A stretch of DNA of 64,000 nucleotides, taken from assembly GCA_018302125.1 (NCBI GenBank), contig JAGWAC010000003.1, positions 2,206-66,205 of the forward strand, given 5' to 3'. The notes under the pieces were generated by a model. It searched no databases. It was not told the DNA's origin and was given only the letters and a program-made list of their open reading frames with translations. Positions 4,402 to 47,699 of the stretch are shown in pieces. Both the position numbers and the translations under genes were made by a program. Numbering within the stretch: position 1 is the first letter of the stretch; each line of letters opens with the position of its first letter. Source of the stretch: Candidatus Woesearchaeota archaeon. GTDB taxonomy: Archaea > Nanobdellota > Nanobdellia > SCGC-AAA011-G17 > JACPIM01.

Positions 4402-5469
4402 TTAGAGTTTAATTAAACTTTTTGCCATATTTCCTGCAATTGTCTGGTACGCTTCACAGGGAGTCCAGCAATTTGGGCATCGAAGAGCTTCTGCATCTTC
4501 CTGCATTCTTACTACATTAGGATCTTGCCAAAATCTTTTAAAATCATAATTAAATTCACGTATGTTTCCCAAAGGTTTTGCCCAAACTAAGCATGGAAAA
4601 ATATTTCCATAAGGATCCATAAAGCAGGATGAATTCAGCGCCTTGCAGGGAAGAGGTGATTTGCCAGTTTCTACAAATTTCTCTACAAATTTTGAATACC
4701 TGCTTTCAAAAAAGCTAACTTTCCAGTCATTTCCTTTCTTGAGTTTTCTATAGTTTCTGATTTCGTTAATAACGCTTTTATTGTATTCAACAGTTTTTTG
4801 TTGGTCAGAATTTTTAAAATAATGATTTGAAGTATGGTATAAATTCATATGTATATATTTTGGGTCTATACCATAATTTTTACCCAGGTTTTGAATAAAT
4901 GATTCTATCTTGCCCATGTTATATGGCGAAGAAGTATAACTGATAAAGACATTAAAGTGTTTATTTTCAAGTTTTTGCAGTTCGCGGAATGTTGTCAGGC
5001 ATTTGTTGAAAGAATCCTTTATTCCTCGAATTTCATTATGAGCTTCTTCATAGCCATCTAAGCTGATAGAAACTGCAAAACGTGGAATTTTTAAAGTTAG
5101 AATTTTTTTTACTTGTTCAACAATATTTTTTGTATCAAACCCATTTGTTGTTGTATGCACAACATAAAGTTCATCATTGTATTCTGTAATTGATTTTAGA
5201 ATTTGATAAACATCTCTAATAAACGGTTCTCCCCCAGTAAGTTGCAGCCAGGAAGATTTGGAATTTTTAAAAATATTTCCGATTTCTTCATAGCTAAGTT
5301 CTCCATCTTTTATCTTTTTGGGGTTTGCTAAATAATTCCTGCCAATGTTACAGGTTTTACATAAAAATGTACATGCATAAGTTATTGCAAAAGTAATCTT
5401 GCACGGGCTAGAAAGTCTTTTATAATTTGACATTAAAAGTTTTTTTGAAATTGAATAAAGAGGTTTCAT
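4402..5469 (-). CDS. radical SAM protein with C-terminal SPASM/twitch Cys-rich domain
   Basis: CTFLCKTC (CxxxCxxC) near N-terminus; C-terminal CKALNSSC...CPNCWTPC cysteine cluster. Confidence 0.8.
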   Translation of the reverse strand: MKPLYSISKKLLMSNYKRLSSPCKITFAITYACTFLCKTCNIGRNYLANPKKIKDGELSYEEIGNIFKNSKSSWLQLTGGEPFIRDVYQILKSITEYNDELYVVHTTTNGFDTKNIVEQVKKILTLKIPRFAVSISLDGYEEAHNEIRGIKDSFNKCLTTFRELQKLENKHFNVFISYTSSPYNMGKIESFIQNLGKNYGIDPKYIHMNLYHTSNHYFKNSDQQKTVEYNKSVINEIRNYRKLKKGNDWKVSFFESRYSKFVEKFVETGKSPLPCKALNSSCFMDPYGNIFPCLVWAKPLGNIREFNYDFKRFWQDPNVVRMQEDAEALRCPNCWTPCEAYQTIAGNMAKSLIKL

Positions 5470-6045: not shown

Positions 6046-7461
6046 ATGGATAAAAAAAAAGTATTATTAATTAATCCATCAATGATGAGTGTATATGAGA
6101 AATCAGTCCTAAAAAACTCATTTCCGCACTATCCACCTCTCAATCTTCTCACAGTTGCCGGAGCGTTAAAACAAAATTCCATACCTGTTTCTCTATTAGA
6201 TCTTGACTTAATTAATAACCGCGAATTAACTGAAGTACTTCAAGAAAAATTACGCGAGGTTAATCCAGAATTAGTGGGTGTCACATTCACCACAACATTA
6301 TACAGTCAATGTGTAAAGATTGCCGAAATAATTAAGAATTACAAAAAGGATATCATTGTTGTTGCTGGTGGTTCTCATGCATCTTCAAAACCAGAAGATC
6401 TCATTACCAAAACACCGTATGATATGGCAGTTGTTGGTGAGGGAGAATTTACTCTTGCTGAAGTCATGACTAAACCAAAAGAACAATGGAACACAATTAA
6501 AGGACTTGTCTATAAAGGAGATAAAGGAGAAATTATCAAAACAGAAAAACGTCCATTTATCAAGAATCTTGACGAAATTCCATTTCCCATGTATGAAATT
6601 ATCAATATCTATAACTATAACATTCCGCCAAGTTTCAGAAGAAAAACACCAACAGCTTGTATGGAAACAAGTAGAGGCTGTCTATGGGGATGCACTTATT
6701 GTAACAAGTCTGTCTTTGGAAGAAATTTCCGTGTAAAAAGTCCTGAGCGAACAGTCAAGGAAATTGAACAATTAGTTTCTCTTGGTTATAAAGAAATCCA
6801 CATCGTTGATGACATGTTCACGACTAACAAAGAACGTGTCAAAGAAATTTGTCGTCTTCTTATTGAAAAAAATATAAATATAATCTGGGCATGTCCTAAT
6901 GGCATACGCGCAGATAGAATTGATCGAGAACTCATAAGCCTAATGAAAAAAGCAGGATGCTATCGTGTGTCCATTGGTGCAGAATCAGGAAATCAAGATG
7001 TCTTGAATGCAATTGAAAAAAATCAGACACCTCAGCAGGTTGAAGTAGCTTTCAAGATTTGCAGAGAATTAGGTATGGTCACACATGGATTCTTTATGTT
7101 CGGTCTACCAGAAGACACTGAAGAAACAATGCAGCAAACAATCGAGTTTGCAAAACGCTGTGAGCCAGATATTGCAAAATTCGGCATCATGATCCCTTTA
7201 CCTTCAACACCGATTTACGAAAAATGGAAAGAAAAACAAGCTATTACAGAAAACTGGGATGATTACGGATTCCATAAAGAAAAACCAGTTTATACTCACC
7301 CAACTCTATCACATGAAACTATAAAAAAATACTATAAAAAATCATATCGCGAGTTTTATCTGCGACCAAGCTTTATTATTCGACGTGTATTTCGTAGTCT
7401 AAAGACTGGACAAATTTTTGATGATATAAGGTTAGTGCTTGCAACAAACTGGTTTTCTTAA
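6046..7461 (+). CDS. B12-binding radical SAM protein (class B)
   Basis: N-terminal Rossmann-like B12-binding region (VLLINPS...); SRGCLWGCTYC CxxxCxxC motif. Confidence 0.85.
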   Translation: MDKKKVLLINPSMMSVYEKSVLKNSFPHYPPLNLLTVAGALKQNSIPVSLLDLDLINNRELTEVLQEKLREVNPELVGVTFTTTLYSQCVKIAEIIKNYKKDIIVVAGGSHASSKPEDLITKTPYDMAVVGEGEFTLAEVMTKPKEQWNTIKGLVYKGDKGEIIKTEKRPFIKNLDEIPFPMYEIINIYNYNIPPSFRRKTPTACMETSRGCLWGCTYCNKSVFGRNFRVKSPERTVKEIEQLVSLGYKEIHIVDDMFTTNKERVKEICRLLIEKNINIIWACPNGIRADRIDRELISLMKKAGCYRVSIGAESGNQDVLNAIEKNQTPQQVEVAFKICRELGMVTHGFFMFGLPEDTEETMQQTIEFAKRCEPDIAKFGIMIPLPSTPIYEKWKEKQAITENWDDYGFHKEKPVYTHPTLSHETIKKYYKKSYREFYLRPSFIIRRVFRSLKTGQIFDDIRLVLATNWFS

Positions 7462-7548: not shown

Positions 7549-8910
7549 ATGCTGCAAAAAAGAAAAGTACTGATGGTTTATTGTTATGCTAAAGCAACGC
7601 AGGGAAAACTAAGGGATGTTGGTGGAGCACACCCACCTATTGGGTTACTATATGCAGCCGCGTCTATTGAGAAAGCAGAACACAATGTAAAAGTTTCTGA
7701 TGAATTAGTAAATGATGATACTGAAAAAATTATTGAAGAATTTAAACCTGACACTTTATGTTTAAGTGTAAATACTCCTTGTGTGCCTAGAGCAAAAGCT
7801 CTTGTGGAGTTTGGAAAAAAACATGGTGTAATGCTTTTTATAGCTGGTGGTGCTCATGCAGTAAACGAACCCAAAAGTTGTATAGTTGATATTGGAGTAA
7901 ATGTTGCTGTAATGAATGAAGGTGAAGTAATACTTCCTAAACTTCTCAATAAAAATGACTGGAGTAAAATTAAAGGCATTACTTATAAAAATAATAAAGG
8001 AGAAATTATCAATAATGGAAAGAGTGATCTTATTGAAGACCTTGACAAAATACCTTTTCCAGCACGGCACTTGATTGATTTTTCAAAATATGCTGGGACA
8101 GCTGAATTTGGATTTTTACTGCACAAAAATGAAAAATGGACTCCAGTAATAACATCAAGGGGTTGTCCTTACTTATGCACTTTCTGTGCAAATTGGAGAG
8201 TAATGGGAAGAGATACTAGGGATAGAAGTCCAGAAAATGTTTTAGAAGAGCTGAAAGAAATCAAATATACCAATGGCATGAATACTATTTTATTTCTTGA
8301 TGATACATTTACATTAAGACCAAAACGAGTAGAGAAAATATGTGAATTAATGATAAAAGAAAACCTTAACATGAAATGGTCTTGCCAAACAAGAGTTGAT
8401 GTCTCAAAAGAGCTCTTGGAACTCATGAAAAAAGCAGGATGTCAACTTGTAGCATTTGGAGTAGAATCAGGAAGCAATAAAGTTCTGCGAGCAATCAAAA
8501 AAGGAACAAATATAGACATAGTGAAAAATGCTTTTAAAATTTCGCATGAAGTTGGATTAAAAAGAAAAGCCTTTTTTATTGTTGGGCTTCCTGGAGAAGA
8601 AAAAGAAGACTTTGAGATGAGTGTAAAATTCGCAAAAGAAATTAATCCTGAGTACTTATGGGTAAGCAAGTTTGCCCCAGTCCCTGGTTCTGAATATTAT
8701 GAAAAAAATAAAGAAGATCTGAAAGATATGAAGTGGGAAGACTATGGTTATTTTAATGGAAAAACATCAAATGAAGTTGAGCAAAGACATAGGAAATTAG
8801 TAAGGTCATTTTATCTGAGACCAGCTTATCTATTTAACTTCATGAAACGATTTTCATGGCTTGAATTTGCTTATATGTTCAGAATGTTCAAAAGTTTTGT
8901 TAGAAGTTAA
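7549..8910 (+). CDS. B12-binding radical SAM protein (class B), paralog of preceding gene
   Basis: TSRGCPYLCTFC motif; same domain order as 6046..7461. Confidence 0.85.
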   Translation: MLQKRKVLMVYCYAKATQGKLRDVGGAHPPIGLLYAAASIEKAEHNVKVSDELVNDDTEKIIEEFKPDTLCLSVNTPCVPRAKALVEFGKKHGVMLFIAGGAHAVNEPKSCIVDIGVNVAVMNEGEVILPKLLNKNDWSKIKGITYKNNKGEIINNGKSDLIEDLDKIPFPARHLIDFSKYAGTAEFGFLLHKNEKWTPVITSRGCPYLCTFCANWRVMGRDTRDRSPENVLEELKEIKYTNGMNTILFLDDTFTLRPKRVEKICELMIKENLNMKWSCQTRVDVSKELLELMKKAGCQLVAFGVESGSNKVLRAIKKGTNIDIVKNAFKISHEVGLKRKAFFIVGLPGEEKEDFEMSVKFAKEINPEYLWVSKFAPVPGSEYYEKNKEDLKDMKWEDYGYFNGKTSNEVEQRHRKLVRSFYLRPAYLFNFMKRFSWLEFAYMFRMFKSFVRS

Positions 8911-28326: not shown

Positions 28327-29715
28327 ATGAAATTTCTATTTTTAGCATGGAAGCATCCTGTAGAACCATTAGGTTTGTTATACATAAGTGCAATTCTAAA
28401 AAAAGACAATCATAAAACAAAAATAGCTGTTATAGGACAGGATGATTTAACAAAAGTTGTTCAGGATTTTAAGCCTAATGTTGTTGCAGGTTCTGTAATG
28501 ACTGGTGGCCAGACAGAATTTCTAAGGATAACAAATGAACTAAAGCAGCATCATAATTTCTTGACATTAATGGGTGGTTCTCATCCAACTTTCCATCCGC
28601 AAGTATTGAAAGAAGAAGGAATGGATATTGTAGCTCAGGGTGAATGTGAAGAGGCAATTGTAGAATTTGCAAATAATTACGAACAAGGAAAAGATTATAC
28701 AAAAATACAAAATCTTTGGATAAAAAAAGATGGAAAAATTTACAAAAATGAAATCAGAAATTTAAATGAAAATCTGGATACATTACCTTTTCCAGACAGA
28801 GATGTTGCATATGAACATAAAATCTGGAAAGATGAACCAATTAGACATTTCATTGCTTGCAGAGGTTGCTCGTATAAATGCCAATACTGTTTTAATAGCG
28901 CCATAGATAAAATATATGGTGGAAAAGGAAAATGGGTAAGATGGAGATCTGTAGATAATTTAATTGCTGAAATCAAAGAAGTATTTCAGAAGTATGGTGG
29001 AAAATTTGTTTATTTTCAAGATGATATTTTTGTTATGAATAAGCCATGGTTAAAAGAATTTGCAGAAAAATACAGAAAAGAAATTAATTTGCCATTTCAT
29101 TGCCATGTAAGACCCAATAATATTGATGAAAATACGGCTCGCCTATTAAGTGAAGCAGGGTGTTATTCAGTTCATATGGCATTAGAAGCAGCAGATGATT
29201 ATATTAGAAATGTAATAATTAAAAGAGAAATGGATAAAGAAACAGTTTACAAAGCATCAGACTTGCTGCATAAATATGGGATTAAAATTATGTTGCAGAA
29301 TATTTTGGGTTTGCCAGAATCTAGCTTGGAAACAGATTTGGAAACATTAAAGATGAATATTAAATGTAAGCCATTATATGCTTGGTGTTCAATATTCCAG
29401 CCATATCCTGGTTTGCCGTTGACAGAATATGCTATATCAAGAAACTTATTAGAGGGCGATTTTGATGATATTGGTCCAAAGTTCTTTGAAACAACTGTAG
29501 TTAAGTTAGAAAATAAAAAACAAATCGAATACTTGCAAAAATGGTTTGCAGTTGCATCAGCTTATCCATTTATTTATAAAACTGGATTGTTAAAATTAAT
29601 ATTAAATATGCCTGATAATAAGCATATAAAAAATCTTTACAAATTCATTTACAATAAATTTAGAAATCATAAAGACAATCAATTATATGGTATTAAATTG
29701 TCAAGTGCTGCTTAA
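28327..29715 (+). CDS. B12-binding radical SAM protein (class B)
   Basis: ACRGCSYKCQYC motif; N-terminal B12-binding-like domain. Confidence 0.85.
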   Translation: MKFLFLAWKHPVEPLGLLYISAILKKDNHKTKIAVIGQDDLTKVVQDFKPNVVAGSVMTGGQTEFLRITNELKQHHNFLTLMGGSHPTFHPQVLKEEGMDIVAQGECEEAIVEFANNYEQGKDYTKIQNLWIKKDGKIYKNEIRNLNENLDTLPFPDRDVAYEHKIWKDEPIRHFIACRGCSYKCQYCFNSAIDKIYGGKGKWVRWRSVDNLIAEIKEVFQKYGGKFVYFQDDIFVMNKPWLKEFAEKYRKEINLPFHCHVRPNNIDENTARLLSEAGCYSVHMALEAADDYIRNVIIKREMDKETVYKASDLLHKYGIKIMLQNILGLPESSLETDLETLKMNIKCKPLYAWCSIFQPYPGLPLTEYAISRNLLEGDFDDIGPKFFETTVVKLENKKQIEYLQKWFAVASAYPFIYKTGLLKLILNMPDNKHIKNLYKFIYNKFRNHKDNQLYGIKLSSAA

Positions 29716-42439: not shown

Positions 42440-43270
42440 TTGGTGAAGCTTTTTCATAAAAAGATTCCAATGGAAAAGAAAAAACTTCCAGAACAAGAAG
42501 AAAGCAAGCTTGAAAGCACAGAAGTTGCTCTAGTTCTAGAATCAACTCCTGAAGCTTCAGAACTACCTGCAGGAGTAGTTATAAAAGAAGAAATATCTAA
42601 TTGGACACCTAAAACAAGAATAGGAAATCTTGTTAAAGAAGGCAAAATAAATAATATTGATGAAATTTTGGGAAAAGGATTAAGAATTCTTGAATCCCAA
42701 ATTGTTGATATTTTATTGCCTAATTTGGAAACAGATTTTATCATGGTAGGTCAAAGCAAAGGCAAATTTGGTGGTGGAAAAAGATCTATTTGGAGACAGA
42801 CACAGAAAAAAACAGCAGAAGGTAACAAGCCTAAATTTTCAGCTTTGGCAATTATAGGAAATAAAGAAGGTTATATTGGCTTTGGCTATGGTAAAGCAAA
42901 AGAGACTGTGCCAGCCAAAGAAAAAGCAATAAGAAAAGGAAAACTAAATTTAATTAAAATTAGGAATGGATGTGGTTCATGGGAATGCAGCTGTTCAGGT
43001 TCTCATTCTATCCCATTCACAGTTAATGCAAAATGTGGTTCAGTTGAAATTGAACTTTTGCCAGCCCCAAAAGGCACTGGTTTATGTGTCGAAAAAGAAT
43101 GTGCAAAATTATTGAATTTTGCAGGTATAAGGGATGTTTATTCTAGAACTTTTGGTCAGACAAGAACAAAATTTAATTTAATTTCAGCTTGCTTTGATGC
43201 TTTAAAAAAATTAAGCACAACGAAATCTCAGCATAAGGTAAGAGGGCAAATTCCAGAGGGTATATCATAA
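42440..43270 (+). CDS. rps5: 30S ribosomal protein S5 with extended N-terminus
   Basis: uS5 core (GKFGGGKRSIWRQ...RNGCGSWECSCSGSHS...APKGTGL); ~45 aa acidic N-terminal extension. Confidence 0.9.
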   Translation: MVKLFHKKIPMEKKKLPEQEESKLESTEVALVLESTPEASELPAGVVIKEEISNWTPKTRIGNLVKEGKINNIDEILGKGLRILESQIVDILLPNLETDFIMVGQSKGKFGGGKRSIWRQTQKKTAEGNKPKFSALAIIGNKEGYIGFGYGKAKETVPAKEKAIRKGKLNLIKIRNGCGSWECSCSGSHSIPFTVNAKCGSVEIELLPAPKGTGLCVEKECAKLLNFAGIRDVYSRTFGQTRTKFNLISACFDALKKLSTTKSQHKVRGQIPEGIS

Positions 43271-43750: not shown

Positions 43751-44161
43751 ATGCCGGTAAATAAAAGAAAGAAAAATTCAAGATTAAAAGGAAGCCATAC
43801 ATATGGTTGGGGTAGTAAAAAAAAGCACAGAAAAGCCGGTAATAGGGGCGGTCATGGGATGTCAGGCACTGGAAAAAGATCTGACCACAAAAAAACTATG
43901 ATTTTGAAAAAATATGGTCATGATTATTTTGGTAAAACTGGATTTAAAAGACCCCAACAAGTACTATTAAAAATAAAAACAATCAATATCGAAGATCTAA
44001 ACAAATTTAAAGAAGATAAAATAGATTTATTAAAACTAGGTTACAATAAATTATTGGGTAAAGGAAACATAAATAAAAAGGTAACTATAATAGTTCCTAA
44101 ATTTAGCGAAAGTGCAAAAGAAAAAATTGAAAAAGCAGGTGGACAAATCTTAGAACAATGA
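43751..44161 (+). CDS. rpl15: 50S ribosomal protein L15
   Basis: glycine/basic-rich uL15 N-terminus (GSHTYGWGSKKKHRKAGNRGGHG). Confidence 0.85.
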   Translation: MPVNKRKKNSRLKGSHTYGWGSKKKHRKAGNRGGHGMSGTGKRSDHKKTMILKKYGHDYFGKTGFKRPQQVLLKIKTINIEDLNKFKEDKIDLLKLGYNKLLGKGNINKKVTIIVPKFSESAKEKIEKAGGQILEQ

Positions 44162-45558
44162 GTATTCTAGACAATTTAACAAAAAAGCTTCCAGAAGTAA
44201 AAGGTCCAGAAGAAAAATACCTTTCTTTTAATACTAAATTAAAATGGACTTTAATAATCTTATCAGCATTTTACATATTAAGTGTTGTTCCTTTGTATGG
44301 TCTTGGCCAAAATGCCTTGTCGCAATTTGAATCCTTATCTATATTATTGGGAGCTAGTTTTGGCAGTATTTTATCTTTGGGTATTGGTCCAATAGTTACT
44401 GCATCCATAGTTTTGCAGTTATTAGTTGGTTCAGAAATATTAAAATTTGATACAACAACAAAAGAAGGAAGGGCAAAATTTCAGGGCGTTCAAAAAATAG
44501 CGGCAATTTTCTTTATTATTTTTGAGGCTGTTATTTATGTAATTTTAGGTGGTTTAGCTCCAGCATCAGATTTGTCTCAGTCAACATTTTTCACTATTCA
44601 ATTAGTCTTGATTTTTCAGTTATTAGTCGGAGGAATGATAGTTTTATTTATGGATGAAGTTTTGAATAAATGGGGATTTGGTTCTGGTATTTCATTGTTC
44701 ATAGCTGCAGGAGTTTCTTCACAAATTTTTGTAAGAATATTGTCGCCATTAACAAGAGCAGGAACTTTTGCATTTAGTTCAGGCGAAAGTCCAGTTGGGC
44801 AATTATGGGTATTTTTACTTTCATTAATAGGAAGAAATCCAAGAGAAGCATTCTTGGCTGCTCTGTTAATAATATTCACAATATTAATTTTCATAGTAGC
44901 AACATATGTCCAGTCTATGAAAGTTGAAATTCCTTTAAGTTTTGGAAGAATAAGGGGTCATGGAATAAGGTGGCCTTTGAAATTTATTTATACATCAAAT
45001 ATCCCTGTTATTTTAATAGCTGCTTTGTTTGCAAATATTCAGCTATGGGCAAGATTATTGGAAAGTCGGGGTTACCCTATTTTAGGAACTTTTGCAGGCA
45101 ATGTGCCAGTTTCAGGAATTGTTGCTTGGTTATTTGCTCCTAATTTGCCAGCAGAAATTTTGGGTGGTAGTTTCAGGCCAATTTTAATACTTCAATCATT
45201 AGTTTATATATCTACATTTGTAATTGGTTCTATAATATTCTCTATTTTCTGGGTTCAGACATCTGGAATGAATGCTTCTTCCCAGGCAAAGCAGATAATT
45301 AATTCAGGCTTGCAAGTACCAGGATTTAGGCGAGATCCAAGAGTTGTTGAAAGATTACTAGAAAGATATATATCTCCTCTAACTGTAATGGGGGCTATAG
45401 TAGTTGGTTTTTTGGCATCAACAGCAGACTTGTTAGGGGCTTTGTCTAGCGGTACTGGAATTCTTCTTACAGTAATGATTATATATAGATTATATGAAGA
45501 TATTAGTAAACAGCATATGGCTGACATTAATCCAGTATTCAGAAAAATGATAGAATAA
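44158..45558 (+). CDS. secY: preprotein translocase subunit SecY
   Basis: 10 TM layout, conserved TM2/plug region (GIGPIVTASIVLQLL), canonical position after rpl15. Confidence 0.9.
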   Translation: MSILDNLTKKLPEVKGPEEKYLSFNTKLKWTLIILSAFYILSVVPLYGLGQNALSQFESLSILLGASFGSILSLGIGPIVTASIVLQLLVGSEILKFDTTTKEGRAKFQGVQKIAAIFFIIFEAVIYVILGGLAPASDLSQSTFFTIQLVLIFQLLVGGMIVLFMDEVLNKWGFGSGISLFIAAGVSSQIFVRILSPLTRAGTFAFSSGESPVGQLWVFLLSLIGRNPREAFLAALLIIFTILIFIVATYVQSMKVEIPLSFGRIRGHGIRWPLKFIYTSNIPVILIAALFANIQLWARLLESRGYPILGTFAGNVPVSGIVAWLFAPNLPAEILGGSFRPILILQSLVYISTFVIGSIIFSIFWVQTSGMNASSQAKQIINSGLQVPGFRRDPRVVERLLERYISPLTVMGAIVVGFLASTADLLGALSSGTGILLTVMIIYRLYEDISKQHMADINPVFRKMIE

Positions 45559-45559
45559 A

Positions 45560-46012
45560 ATGGCATTAGAAACTTTTTTTGATATAATATTTGGTCCTGT
45601 AATAGCTTTAGGTAATCCTTGGAATATTATTATAATTTCTTTTTTCTTGACATTAATAGTTAATTTAGCTATGAAATTCTTTACTAATCAAAAAATCATG
45701 AAATCTTTAAAAGAAGACACTGAATATTTTAAAAAAGAAATGCAAAAGTTTAAAAATGACCCGCAAAAACTAATAGAAATACAAAAGAAATCAATGGAAA
45801 CAAGCTTAAAATATTTGAAGCATTCGCTTCCAGCAACATTAGTAACCTTGCTTCCCTTGTTGTTAATTTTTGGATGGTTAAGACAAACCTTCCCATCTGA
45901 ACAGATATTATTAATCCTGCCTTTTGGCATTAATTTAGGATGGCTTGGTTCCTACATATTGTTTTCAATTATATTTAGTATAATTTTAAGAAAAATATTA
46001 AAGATACACTAA
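45560..46012 (+). CDS. DUF106/EMC3-TMCO1-like membrane protein (archaeal YidC/Oxa1-superfamily insertase candidate)
   Basis: 3-TM protein with coiled-coil loop rich in K/E/Q; canonical position downstream of secY in archaea. Confidence 0.55.
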   Translation: MALETFFDIIFGPVIALGNPWNIIIISFFLTLIVNLAMKFFTNQKIMKSLKEDTEYFKKEMQKFKNDPQKLIEIQKKSMETSLKYLKHSLPATLVTLLPLLLIFGWLRQTFPSEQILLILPFGINLGWLGSYILFSIIFSIILRKILKIH

Positions 46013-46013
46013 A

Positions 46014-46688
46014 ATGCCAATACAACCACAAGCAACAAGAAGTTTAAGAAGAATTCAAGTAAGAACTCCTGGCAACAGGTTAGTTACTCATTTTGAAAAG
46101 AAAAAACCAACAATAGCTAAATGTGGAAATTGTGGTCAAGAATTAAAAGGTATTCCTAGAGAAAGACCGACAGCTTTCAGAAATTTGCCTTATTCTCAAA
46201 AAACAGTTTCTAGGCCTTTTGGCGGAAATCTATGTTCAAAATGTTCAAGAGAAAAAATAATTGAAAAATTCAAGGATATTAAAGAATTCCCCTTGGAAAT
46301 TGGCCAGGTTTGTGTAAAAACAGCAGGAAAAGAAGCAGGTTCTGTATGTGTAATAGTGGAGAAATTAGATGAGAATTTTGTTTTAATTGATGGCCAGGTA
46401 AAAAGAAGAAAATGTAATGTCTTGCACTTAAAAACATTGGATAAAAAACTGGAAATTAAAAAAAATGAGTCTTCTGAAACTATAAAAAGGGAATTAAAAG
46501 CATTAGGTTTTGAAATAAAAGAAGGAAGAAAGAAAGAAAAGAAAGCTCTTCCTGAGAAAAAAGAAATTAAAAAGGAAGAAAAAGTCGCTGAGAAAAAAGA
46601 GGCTAAAAAAGAGCCTAAGAAAACTGAAAAATCTGAAATTAAAAAAAAGAAAGCTGAAAAACCAAAATCTAAAGGAGTCAAGAAATAG
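46014..46688 (+). CDS. fused ribosomal proteins L34e (N-terminal) and L14e (KOW, middle) with K/E-rich tail
   Basis: N-term RRIQVRTPGNRLVTHFEKKKP...CGNCGQEL...GGNLCSKC (eL34); residues ~95-150 GQVCVKTAGKEAGSVCVIVEKLDENFVLIDG (eL14 KOW); single continuous ORF. Confidence 0.7.
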   Translation: MPIQPQATRSLRRIQVRTPGNRLVTHFEKKKPTIAKCGNCGQELKGIPRERPTAFRNLPYSQKTVSRPFGGNLCSKCSREKIIEKFKDIKEFPLEIGQVCVKTAGKEAGSVCVIVEKLDENFVLIDGQVKRRKCNVLHLKTLDKKLEIKKNESSETIKRELKALGFEIKEGRKKEKKALPEKKEIKKEEKVAEKKEAKKEPKKTEKSEIKKKKAEKPKSKGVKK

Positions 46689-46727: not shown

Positions 46728-47141
46728 ATGAAACAAGAGATTCAGCAAAAATATATTGAACTTCAATTTCTTAATCAGCAGATTAAAAAAGTTCAGGAGC
46801 AGTTCATGTTTTTTCAGCAGCAATTGGCTGAATTGATAAATTTAGAAACTTCATTATTAGATATGAAAAATATTAAAGAAGATTCTGAGCTATTTTCTTC
46901 ATTAGGTTCTGGCATATTTGTTAATAGCAAACTTGTAGATCCTAAAAATGTTCTTGTAAATGTTGGTGCTAGTGTCTTGGTGACAAAAACTGTTGAAGAA
47001 GCTATTAAATTAATTAAGATTCAAATTGAAAATGTAAATAAATCTCAGGAAACTATTAAAGAAGAGCTGACAAAAGCAGCAACGTATTCAGGGCAATTAA
47101 CTCAAGAATTAAATGAACTGGCTTCACAAGAACAAAAATAA
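46728..47141 (+). CDS. pfdA: prefoldin subunit alpha
   Basis: coiled coil - beta hairpin (LGSGIFVNSKL...VNVGASVLV) - coiled coil layout, 137 aa. Confidence 0.6.
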   Translation: MKQEIQQKYIELQFLNQQIKKVQEQFMFFQQQLAELINLETSLLDMKNIKEDSELFSSLGSGIFVNSKLVDPKNVLVNVGASVLVTKTVEEAIKLIKIQIENVNKSQETIKEELTKAATYSGQLTQELNELASQEQK

Positions 47142-47699
47142 TTAAAATTCCTTTCTTCTTTTCAAATACTCAACTAATTCTTTTGAAATCAAAGGTTTAT
47201 TTTTTATTAGTAAATATCTATAAGGTAAAATAACAGAGTCATATTTTCCTAATTGAATCTCTATTTTTTCCTTGAATTTTAAATCTTTTAACTTCTTTCC
47301 TTTTAAAATTTCTTTTACAACAGCAACCGCATTATCAGTGCTAAATTGTTTTTTTCCAATGTTTCTAGCTGTGAAGTTTAGTTTTTTAGTTAATTCTTTT
47401 TTCGTTCTTTTTTTCGGAGGATAATCCCCCAAAATCCCGCCAAAAATAAAATATTTAAATTTTTTAGCCTCTTCCGGACTTAAAGTTTTCTTTGCATCTG
47501 GATCTAATATACAGGCATTTTTTAAATTTAATTCAGAAATAGATTTGCTATTTCTTTTGCCGTATTTCCCTAATTGCTTGTTTTTAATATTAGTAAATAA
47601 CAGTTTCCCTTTTCCAACAATTTTAGAAATATGTTTATATTCAATTAAGCACCATTTCCATAATTTACAATCTAAATGTTCTATAATAAAAGTAGCCAT
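47142..47699 (-). CDS. SPOUT-class methyltransferase of the SFM1/DUF431 family
   Basis: Clear similarity to yeast Sfm1 blocks: IIEH...W.LIEY.HI, LDP.A...L.PEEAKKF.YF.FGGILGD.PP, RN.G.KQ.STD.A. Confidence 0.65.
   Translation of the reverse strand: MATFIIEHLDCKLWKWCLIEYKHISKIVGKGKLLFTNIKNKQLGKYGKRNSKSISELNLKNACILDPDAKKTLSPEEAKKFKYFIFGGILGDYPPKKRTKKELTKKLNFTARNIGKKQFSTDNAVAVVKEILKGKKLKDLKFKEKIEIQLGKYDSVILPYRYLLIKNKPLISKELVEYLKRRKEF

What the first reader, a model, noticed from the sequence alone, without database searches (positions are those of the whole stretch)
46014..46688. Gene fusion of ribosomal proteins L34e and L14e; adk and cmk missing from the secY-distal operon
Archaea normally encode secY-adk-DUF106-rpl34e-cmk-rpl14e. 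Here adk and cmk are missing. rpl34e and rpl14e are fused into one 224-aa ORF with a ~60-aa K/E-rich tail. The L34e zinc ribbon and the L14e KOW domain are both intact. This is a clear case of genome streamlining producing a fused r-protein.
Basis: partly seen in the sequence, partly recalled or inferred. Interest (0 to 1): 0.55.

Follow-up and report, generated by a model that had tools for sequence, protein, structure and literature searches.

The report
Fused ribosomal protein L34e–L14e gene
In this small-genome (Woesearchaeota-like) archaeon, two large-subunit ribosomal proteins that are normally separate, L34e and L14e, are made as one protein; the fusion is real and shared by dozens of relatives, and may tether L14e at its second ribosomal site beside L34e.

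Summary
ORF 46014..46688 (+), 224 aa, has three parts: a complete L34e (res 1-86, four zinc-ribbon Cys), a 7-residue linker, a complete L14e (res 94-170), and a disordered K/E-rich tail (171-224). It directly follows secY and a DUF106/EMC3-like gene, with no adk or cmk.

It is not an assembly artefact. At least 50 distinct full-length fused homologues, 99% to about 35% identical and from independent assemblies, keep the frame open.

Unfused relatives show how it arose. cmk is lost first, then L34e and L14e sit adjacent (spacers 475, 75, 49, 9, -4 and -8 nt), and the stop codon, Shine-Dalgarno and ATG are finally erased. Two fused groups have different linkers and downstream synteny, and each has a matching unfused relative, which suggests two independent fusions. 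This is not resolved.

The K/E tail and the loss of adk/cmk predate the fusion and are common in DPANN archaea.

Inferred mechanism: solved archaeal ribosomes carry one L34e and two L14e. The second L14e sits at H58/ES20L, the eukaryotic eL27 position, and eL27 clusters with eL34. The short linker fits tethering there and not at the canonical L14e site. What fills the canonical site is unknown.

No paper found describes the fusion. Verdict: new variant of a known kind, moderate interest.

The parts
46014..46688 (+). Complete fused ORF L34e::L14e, 224 aa plus stop
   Evidence: conserved in frame in at least 50 homologues
46014..46271 (+). eL34 (L34e) domain, res 1-86, with zinc-ribbon Cys at 37, 40, 74 and 77
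   Evidence: Pfam PF01199 E 6e-28; NCBIfam NF003143 95.2 bits; PDB eL34 chains E 2.5e-19; Foldseek hits to archaeal eL34
46272..46292 (+). Junction/linker, res 87-93 (KDIKEFP); no stop, no ATG, no correctly spaced Shine-Dalgarno
   Evidence: unfused relatives have stop + SD + ATG at this point
46293..46523 (+). eL14 (L14e) domain, res 94-170: SH3-like/KOW barrel plus a C-terminal helix
   Evidence: NCBIfam NF003320 98.3 bits, above its cut-off of 87; PDB L14e 2JOY/2KDS E ~3e-18; Foldseek TM 0.76-0.82, rmsd 1.6-1.8 A to archaeal eL14 chains
46524..46685 (+). K/E-rich C-terminal tail, res 171-224, predicted disordered; inherited from the DPANN-type L14e
   Evidence: pLDDT below 50 for res 177-224; tails also occur on stand-alone L14e
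44158..45558 (+). secY, upstream in the operon
   Evidence: synteny with L003-L005, L015, L016, where the gene is Pfam SecY; ORF
45560..46012 (+). DUF106/EMC3-TMCO1-like membrane protein, immediately upstream (1-nt spacers on both sides)
   Evidence: Pfam PF01956 E 3.6e-6
46728..47141 (+). Prefoldin subunit, the conserved downstream neighbour in group A fused loci and in unfused L005
   Evidence: Pfam PF02996 E 4e-20; synteny

Best explanation
The ORF is a real, long-fixed gene fusion that makes large-subunit ribosomal proteins eL34 and eL14 as one polypeptide. Evolutionary route: the ancestral order was ...secY-(adk)-DUF106-L34e-cmk-L14e. In this DPANN lineage adk and cmk left the locus, which brought L34e and L14e together. 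Loss of the L34e stop codon and erasure of the L14e Shine-Dalgarno and ATG then joined them through a linker of about 7 residues. The K/E-rich tail came with the L14e gene. Function (inferred): archaeal 50S subunits bind one eL34 and two eL14. The second eL14 copy sits on H58/ES20L, the place taken by the eL14-related protein eL27 in eukaryotes, and eL27 belongs to the same spatial protein cluster as eL34. A 7-residue linker cannot span from eL34 to the canonical eL14 site behind the central protuberance. The fused L14e domain is therefore most likely tethered at the second, eL27-like site beside eL34. This guarantees 1:1 co-delivery and co-assembly in domain III. Shown: the ORF, its domains, its conservation, the intermediate gene arrangements and the loss of translation signals. 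Inferred: the ribosomal placement and any assembly benefit.
For: Domains. Reality of the fusion: a 99%-identical protein on 3 other contigs, and 46 + 8 fused homologues from JGI, ENA, NCBI and Logan assemblies down to about 35% identity, all in frame. Intermediates: L008 secY-EMC3-cmk-L14e; unfused adjacent pairs with spacers of 475 nt (L010), 75 nt (L009), 49 nt (L007), 9 nt in the same frame (L005), -4 nt (L002) and -8 nt (L013). All five unfused pairs examined have GGAGG/GGTGA 4-8 nt before the L14e ATG, and the window junction has neither. The column where stand-alone L14e has its Met is P/K/other in all fused proteins. Stoichiometry: archaeal eL14 has 2 chains per PDB entry and eL34 has 1 (8hku 18/9, 9sra 12/6, 6skf 6/3, the 4v6u group 8/4). 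L14e(2) lies at H58/ES20L, the eL27 position (PMC3553981). L27 and L34 are among the proteins that clamp H58 (PMC7145529). Proximity-network regions group eL34, eL27, eL30, uL2 and eL43 together, and put eL14 with eL20, eL21, uL16 and uL18 (PMC8686616). Canonical archaeal eL14 contacts only uL6 and eL20 (PMC9932298). Every stand-alone L14e examined except L008 lies just after its own L34e, so these are orthologues from unfused lineages and not second copies.
Against: No coordinates could be read here, so the distance from the eL34 C-terminus to the N-terminus of L14e(2) was not measured. Adjacency is inferred from eukaryotic eL27/eL34 clustering and shared H58 binding. With one fused gene the L34e:L14e ratio is 1:1, not 1:2, so the canonical L14e site is left unexplained. 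Only 64 kb of this genome was seen, and a second L14e gene elsewhere cannot be excluded. Group B fusions have 12-18-residue linkers, so a tight tether is not universal. The AF2 model has modest confidence (pLDDT 67.9, pTM 0.50) and gives no reliable interdomain geometry. It rests on general knowledge plus L008.
Confidence: 0.7

Rival explanations
1. The fusion is a neutral by-product of intergenic shrinkage and has no structural logic. Each fused molecule uses only one of its domains at a given site. For example, the L14e domain binds the canonical site with the L34e domain dangling, or several fusion molecules bind per ribosome.
For: Relatives that lost cmk show shrinking or overlapping spacers, so accidental read-through is easy. 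In L005 a single stop-codon change would fuse the two in frame. Two L14e sites but only one fused gene imply that at least one site cannot be served by a doubly bound molecule.
Against: The fusion has persisted to about 35% identity in at least 50 sequences, possibly after two independent origins, with both domains under constraint. A dangling, highly basic, mostly buried protein such as L34e (described as 'mostly buried' in the bioRxiv paper) would probably be deleterious. The short linker is conserved in length (6-10 aa) across group A.
Confidence: 0.2
2. The fusion is translated as a precursor and then cleaved into separate L34e and L14e proteins, as happens with eukaryotic ubiquitin-eL40 and ubiquitin-eS31.
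For: Processed ribosomal-protein fusions exist in eukaryotes (general knowledge). Cleavage would restore free L14e for both sites.
Against: There is no ubiquitin-like or protease-recognition element. The linker sequence varies between subgroups (KDIKEFP, PNLKKEK, long A/E/G-rich linkers), which argues against a conserved cleavage site. Cleavage would still give a 1:1 ratio.
Confidence: 0.05
3. The fusion is an assembly or sequencing artefact, or a pseudogene. A lost stop or frameshift in this contig falsely joins two genes.
For: The contig is a low-GC (29%) metagenome-type sequence with homopolymer runs near the region.
Against: The same architecture occurs in dozens of independent assemblies from four data sources at all divergence levels. 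The junction Met/SD is systematically absent and both domains score at full length.
Confidence: 0.02

Closest known systems
Separate archaeal eL34 and eL14 (e.g. P. furiosus 4V6U/9QF4, T. kodakarensis 6SKF, S. acidocaldarius 8HKU; S. solfataricus L14e 2JOY/2KDS)
   Same: Both domains are full-length orthologues by profile and by fold. The zinc ribbon is retained, and the gene sits in the same place after secY-DUF106.
   Different: Here the two are one polypeptide. The L14e start codon and SD are gone. There is a 54-aa K/E tail that the archaeal L14e in solved structures lacks. The stoichiometry is forced to 1:1 instead of 1:2.
Eukaryotic eL27 (SH3-like paralogue-like relative of eL14 occupying the archaeal L14e(2) site)
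   Same: Under the proposed placement, an SH3/KOW barrel sits on H58/ES20L next to eL34. Both would be ways of dedicating a protein to that site.
   Different: The domain here is eL14 by sequence, not eL27, and there is no Pfam L27e hit. Dedication would be achieved by covalent tethering and not by gene duplication. The placement is inferred, not shown.
DPANN operon secY-HP-L34e-L14e-S13-S4-S11 (archaeon GW2011_AR10, PMC10833476) and Asgard L34e-L14e-Cbf5
   Same: L34e and L14e are directly adjacent downstream of secY and a hypothetical membrane protein, with no adk or cmk listed. L002 has the same order.
   Different: In those genomes the two genes are separate.
Ubiquitin-ribosomal protein fusions (Ub-eL40, Ub-eS31)
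   Same: A ribosomal protein is encoded as part of a fusion.
   Different: Those fuse a non-ribosomal chaperone-like domain that is cleaved off. Here two bona fide ribosomal proteins are joined and no cleavage signal is evident.

Membership tests
eL34 (Ribosomal_L34e, PF01199 / NF003143) | Profile match over the full family model above the curated threshold | tested here: met
   Pfam 97.4 bits against a cut-off of 27, profile positions 14-93 of 94
eL34 (Ribosomal_L34e, PF01199 / NF003143) | NCBIfam equivalog cut-off | tested here: inconclusive
   95.2 bits against a cut-off of 97, positions 1-86 of 89; 1.8 bits short
eL34 (Ribosomal_L34e, PF01199 / NF003143) | Four-cysteine zinc ribbon | tested here: met
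   C37, C40, C74 and C77 are present and at least 90% conserved in alignment A1; lost in some relatives
eL34 (Ribosomal_L34e, PF01199 / NF003143) | Fold resembles solved eL34 | tested here: met
   Foldseek hits to 9qf4_Bb and 6skf_Be, E ~1e-6, 45-50% identity, TMt ~0.5 (an extended protein)
eL34 (Ribosomal_L34e, PF01199 / NF003143) | Incorporated in the 50S subunit at the eL34 site | not testable with these tools
   needs a ribosome structure or proteomics
eL14 (L14e, NF003320; KOW/SH3-like) | Equivalog profile above the curated cut-off | tested here: met
   98.3 bits against a cut-off of 87, positions 4-83 of 88, res 94-170
eL14 (L14e, NF003320; KOW/SH3-like) | SH3-like barrel fold matching solved eL14 | tested here: met
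   8hku_L141 TMt 0.76, rmsd 1.6; 9qf4_BL and 9qf4_BK TMt 0.81-0.82
eL14 (L14e, NF003320; KOW/SH3-like) | Independently translated small protein (own start codon) | tested here: not met
   no ATG or SD at the junction; fused in all clade members
eL14 (L14e, NF003320; KOW/SH3-like) | [quoted passage not shown] | not testable with these tools
   known for solved archaeal ribosomes; unknown for this organism
eL27 (functional analogue only) | Sequence membership in Ribosomal_L27e | tested here: not met
   no L27e family hit at E <= 0.1
eL27 (functional analogue only) | Occupies the H58/ES20L site beside eL34 | not testable with these tools
   inferred; needs coordinates or cryo-EM
Cleaved ubiquitin-type ribosomal-protein fusions | Ubiquitin-like domain and a processing site | tested here: not met
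   no such domain in Pfam or NCBIfam scans; the linker is not conserved

The most novel reading that the evidence does not exclude
The fusion acts as a natural covalent cross-link that dedicates one L14e domain to the secondary (eL27-like) site beside eL34. On this reading, Woesearchaeota-type archaea solved the 'promiscuous L14e' problem by tethering, where eukaryotes solved it by evolving eL27, and they may have done so twice independently. If the fused gene is the only L14e source, the canonical L14e site of these ribosomes is either empty or filled by a half-bound fusion. Either case would mean a remodelled large subunit in a major uncultivated archaeal group.
Probability: 0.4. Interest if true: 0.6.

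Novelty: new variant of a known kind. Interest (0 to 1): 0.45.

Why it matters
Fusions of two bona fide ribosomal proteins are rare. This one would give genetic, evolution-tested support that the second L14e site seen in cryo-EM maps of thermophilic archaea is physiologically relevant and lies beside eL34. It links to the proposed origin of eukaryotic eL27 from promiscuous L14e. It predicts an altered protein stoichiometry for DPANN ribosomes, for which no structure exists.

Practically, the fused gene is a clean synapomorphy-type marker for subclades of Woesearchaeota. It is also an annotation trap: NCBI calls one member 'hypothetical', and most pipelines label the protein only 'L34e', so L14e is scored as missing in completeness or gene-loss surveys.

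Tried and rejected
- **L14e-domain tree.** An NJ tree of the 77-aa L14e domain (251 sequences) scattered the fused sequences into about 15 groups (12 Fitch changes). I rejected it as uninformative because the domain is too short.
- **Concatenated tree.** The 163-column tree is better, but its deep nodes have under 60% bootstrap, so I make no firm claim about the number of origins.
- **Literature on the fusion.** Searches found no paper describing it.
- **Literature on L34e–L14e(2) contact.** The searches found only indirect evidence (shared H58 binding; the eL27/eL34 cluster).
- **Canonical gene order.** I tried to verify secY-adk-DUF106-L34e-cmk-L14e on a non-DPANN locus. Every short L14e or L34e I looked up was again an adjacent pair without cmk. 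Only L008 retains cmk.
- **Internal initiation of the L14e domain.** Considered and rejected: there is no ATG or SD at the junction.
- **Misassigned KOW domain.** I considered whether it is L24, L27e, L6e or Spt5 instead of L14e. Rejected on the L14e equivalog score and the fold hits.
- **Eukaryote-type eL14 C-terminal extension.** No Pfam support for homology of the tail.
- **RNA genes.** Rfam and tRNA scans of the window found nothing.
- **Interdomain geometry.** The AF2 model cannot be used for it (pTM 0.50).
- **Genome scan.** The genome-contig scan with the single protein returned only 2 loci, which limited the taxonomic naming.

Full report
**Observation.** The window (29.4% GC) has an ATG-initiated ORF at 46014..46688 (+) of 224 aa with no internal stop.
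- Pfam places Ribosomal_L34e on residues 7-86 (E 6e-28).
- NCBIfam places the L34e equivalog on residues 1-86 (95.2 bits, cut-off 97).
- NCBIfam places the L14e equivalog on residues 94-170 (98.3 bits, cut-off 87).
- Against PDB sequences, the N-terminal half hits archaeal and eukaryotic eL34 (best E 2.5e-19), and residues 94-166 hit Sulfolobus L14e 2JOY/2KDS (E ~3e-18).
- An AlphaFold2 model built on 26 homologues has mean pLDDT 67.9. It shows the L34e strands and C-terminal helix (res 11-85), a five-stranded barrel (98-145) plus a helix (154-164), and a disordered tail from residue 177.
- Foldseek matches the barrel to both eL14 chains of solved archaeal ribosomes (TM 0.76-0.82, rmsd 1.6-1.8 A) and the N-terminal part to archaeal eL34.
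- The four zinc-ribbon cysteines (C37, C40, C74, C77) are present.

The linker is only residues 87-93.

**Context.** The gene is the last ribosomal-protein gene of a long S10/spc-type operon...L18 (41913), S5 (42440), L30 (43273), L15 (43751), secY (44158-45558), DUF106/EMC3-like (45560-46012), the fusion, then prefoldin (46728-47141). The spacers around the fusion are 1 nt. There is no room for adk or cmk. A screen of the whole 64 kb found no second L14e or L34e and no kinase-type Walker-A ORF. The rest of the window looks like an ordinary small archaeal genome (glycosyltransferases, B12-radical-SAM enzymes, Glu/Gln-tRNA synthetase, L1-L10). The nearest named relative of the protein (83% identity) is a 'Candidatus Woesearchaeota archaeon' MAG.

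**Is the fusion real?** Yes.
- A 99%-identical protein occurs on three other contigs. The word-indexed search returned about 32 fused clusters at 90% identity, from 99% down to 34% identity.
- The exhaustive search of 1.84 billion representatives found about 15 fused representatives among 1741 hits, and the rest were stand-alone L14e or L34e.
- A further search seeded with a divergent member added eight more.
- Domain parsing gives 46 fused sequences in the first set, and 50 full-length fused sequences entered the tree.
- They come from JGI, ENA, NCBI and Logan assemblies. All keep the frame open, and the alignment column where stand-alone L14e has its initiator Met is Pro, Lys or another residue.

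An assembly artefact or pseudogene is excluded.

**How it arose.** Relatives preserve the intermediate states.

| Locus | Arrangement |
|---|---|
| L008 | secY-EMC3-cmk-L14e-Cbf5; cmk confirmed by Pfam, E 1e-21 |
| L010 | L34e and L14e adjacent, no cmk; 475-nt non-coding gap |
| L009 | adjacent; 75-nt spacer, same frame |
| L007 | adjacent; 49-nt spacer, L34e not called by the gene caller |
| L005 | adjacent; 9-nt spacer, same frame, '...taa ggt gaa cat ATG' |
| L002 | adjacent; 4-nt overlap |
| L013 | adjacent; 8-nt overlap |

A published complete DPANN genome (AR10) has secY-HP-L34e-L14e-S13-S4-S11 (PMC10833476), the same order as L002. In all five unfused pairs examined, a GGAGG/GGTGA-type Shine-Dalgarno lies 4-8 nt before the L14e ATG. 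The window junction (aaattcaaggatattaaagaattcccc TTG GAA ATT GGC) has neither an ATG nor a correctly spaced SD. The route is therefore: adk and cmk leave the locus, L34e and L14e become adjacent, the spacer shrinks, and the stop, SD and ATG are lost. In L005 a single change of the stop codon would produce an in-frame fusion.

**One origin or two?** A concatenated L34e+L14e NJ tree (54 sequences, 163 columns, 100 bootstraps) separates two fused groups.
- Group A contains the window. It has 6-10-aa linkers (two members have 12-14), mostly retains the four Cys, and has K/E tails.
- Group B has mostly 12-18-aa linkers (P0122 and P0032 have 6-7), has mostly lost the Cys, and has A/P/K-rich or acidic tails.

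The unfused pairs fall between the two groups, but the deep nodes have under 60% support.

Synteny splits the same way. Group A loci (window, L003, L004) continue with prefoldin-primase, as does unfused L005. The group B locus L015 continues with PheRS on the opposite strand, as do unfused L007, L009 and L010. L007 also shares the 'MVEGK...' N-terminus and A/P/K tail style of group B. Two independent fusions are the more parsimonious reading. A single old fusion followed by fission is not excluded.

**The tail.** Stand-alone L14e proteins of these lineages are 120-180 aa long and already carry K-rich C-terminal tails (for example L005 at 123 aa, L010 at 165 aa and L007 at 159 aa). The fused-family profile aligns to them over positions 94-215. 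The tail therefore predates the fusion. Reviews state that archaeal eL14 lacks a C-terminal extension (PMC9932298 and PMC5961077). That statement does not hold for DPANN-type L14e. I found no detectable homology between this tail and the eukaryotic extension.

**How it most likely works (inferred).**
- In every solved archaeal ribosome in the PDB list, eL14 has two chains per entry and eL34 has one (8hku 18/9, 9sra 12/6, 6skf 6/3, 4v6u/9qf4-6 8/4, 9e6q 6/3).
- This agrees with Armache et al. (PMC3553981). L14e(1) sits behind the central protuberance on H41 and the tip of H25, next to LX. L14e(2) sits on H58 and the tip of ES20L, where eukaryotes have the related SH3-like protein eL27. Those authors saw L14e(2) density in all their archaeal maps.
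- Canonical archaeal eL14 contacts only uL6 and eL20 (PMC9932298).
- In yeast, L27 and L34 are among the proteins that clamp H58 (PMC7145529).
- Proximity-network analysis groups eL34, eL27, eL30, uL2 and eL43 in one region, and places eL14 with eL20, eL21, uL16 and uL18 in another (PMC8686616).

A 7-residue linker cannot bridge those two regions. If both domains of one molecule are bound, the L14e domain must be at the eL27-like site beside eL34. The fusion would then guarantee co-delivery of the two neighbours during assembly of domain III.

The open problem is stoichiometry. One fused gene gives L34e:L14e = 1:1, so the canonical site must be empty, or served by a half-bound second molecule, or served by an undetected paralogue. 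All stand-alone L14e genes I examined except L008 lie directly after their own L34e gene. They are therefore orthologues from unfused lineages and not such paralogues. However, only 64 kb of this genome was available.

**Comparison with what is known.** Both halves are ordinary members of eL34 and eL14. The novelty lies in the architecture. No paper in the searchable library describes an L34e-L14e fusion. Phylogenomic surveys of archaeal ribosomal proteins mention both proteins only as frequently co-lost. The databases do contain the proteins. NCBI labels one 'hypothetical protein [Candidatus Woesearchaeota archaeon]' (MBR9692393.1). JGI labels most 'L34e', and one 'ribosomal protein L34E/ribosomal protein L14E/L6E/L27E'. 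An automatic pipeline has therefore seen both domains, but no paper found discusses the fusion.

**Verdict.** This is a real, conserved ribosomal-protein gene fusion, and a new variant of a known kind. It is moderately interesting because it bears on L14e promiscuity, the origin of eL27 and the composition of DPANN ribosomes. The loss of adk and cmk from the operon is real but is an ordinary, already documented DPANN feature.

Noticed in passing
Relatives only: P0133, P0130 (fused L34e-L14e), P0278 (uL22), P0279 and P0280 (uS4); locus L016 for P0130: A conserved acidic C-terminal module of about 45 aa ('EIPARSTxxNKTKDEIKxYAxEEWGVELSTNDLKDEMIDQLFEEI', HeH/Rho_N-like by eye, no Pfam hit) is attached to at least three different ribosomal proteins. 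These appear to come from one acidic-proteome (probably halophilic) DPANN lineage, with 64-86% identity over the module. A shared appendage on several ribosomal proteins is unusual.
   Followed up: partly
L005 5001-5372, L010 4001-4498, L007 5001-5480, L009 4001-4417; window 46524-46685: Stand-alone L14e proteins of DPANN archaea carry long K-rich (or A/P/K-rich) C-terminal tails and total 120-180 aa. Reviews state that archaeal eL14 lacks a C-terminal extension.
   Followed up: partly
L005 4743-4991; L007 about 4685-4951: The short L34e genes were not called by the gene finders used for these public contigs. Missed genes of this kind, or the fusion being labelled only as L34e, could be misread as ribosomal-protein loss in DPANN surveys.
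   Followed up: partly
L010 3526-4000: A 475-nt AT-rich stretch with no ORF lies between L34e and L14e, exactly where cmk sits in the ancestral order. It may be a decayed remnant of cmk.
   Followed up: no
Relatives P0027, P0031, P0121, P0123-P0130, P0133, P0136: Many fused members have lost some or all four zinc-ribbon cysteines of L34e, while the window protein keeps them.
   Followed up: partly
window 47142-47699 (-): An SFM1-like SPOUT protein arginine methyltransferase (Pfam E 1.6e-52) lies two genes downstream of the ribosomal-protein operon. The yeast family member methylates a ribosomal protein (from general knowledge).
   Followed up: no
window 6046-7461, 7549-8910, 28327-29715: Three paralogous B12-binding radical-SAM proteins sit among glycosyltransferase and polysaccharide-synthesis genes.
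   Followed up: no
window 1-64000: There is no tRNA gene and no Rfam family hit at gathering threshold anywhere in the 64 kb.
   Followed up: no
window 42440-43270: The S5 ORF, as listed from a TTG start, is 276 aa with an N-terminal extension of about 60 aa rich in E, K and S. The true start was not checked.
   Followed up: no
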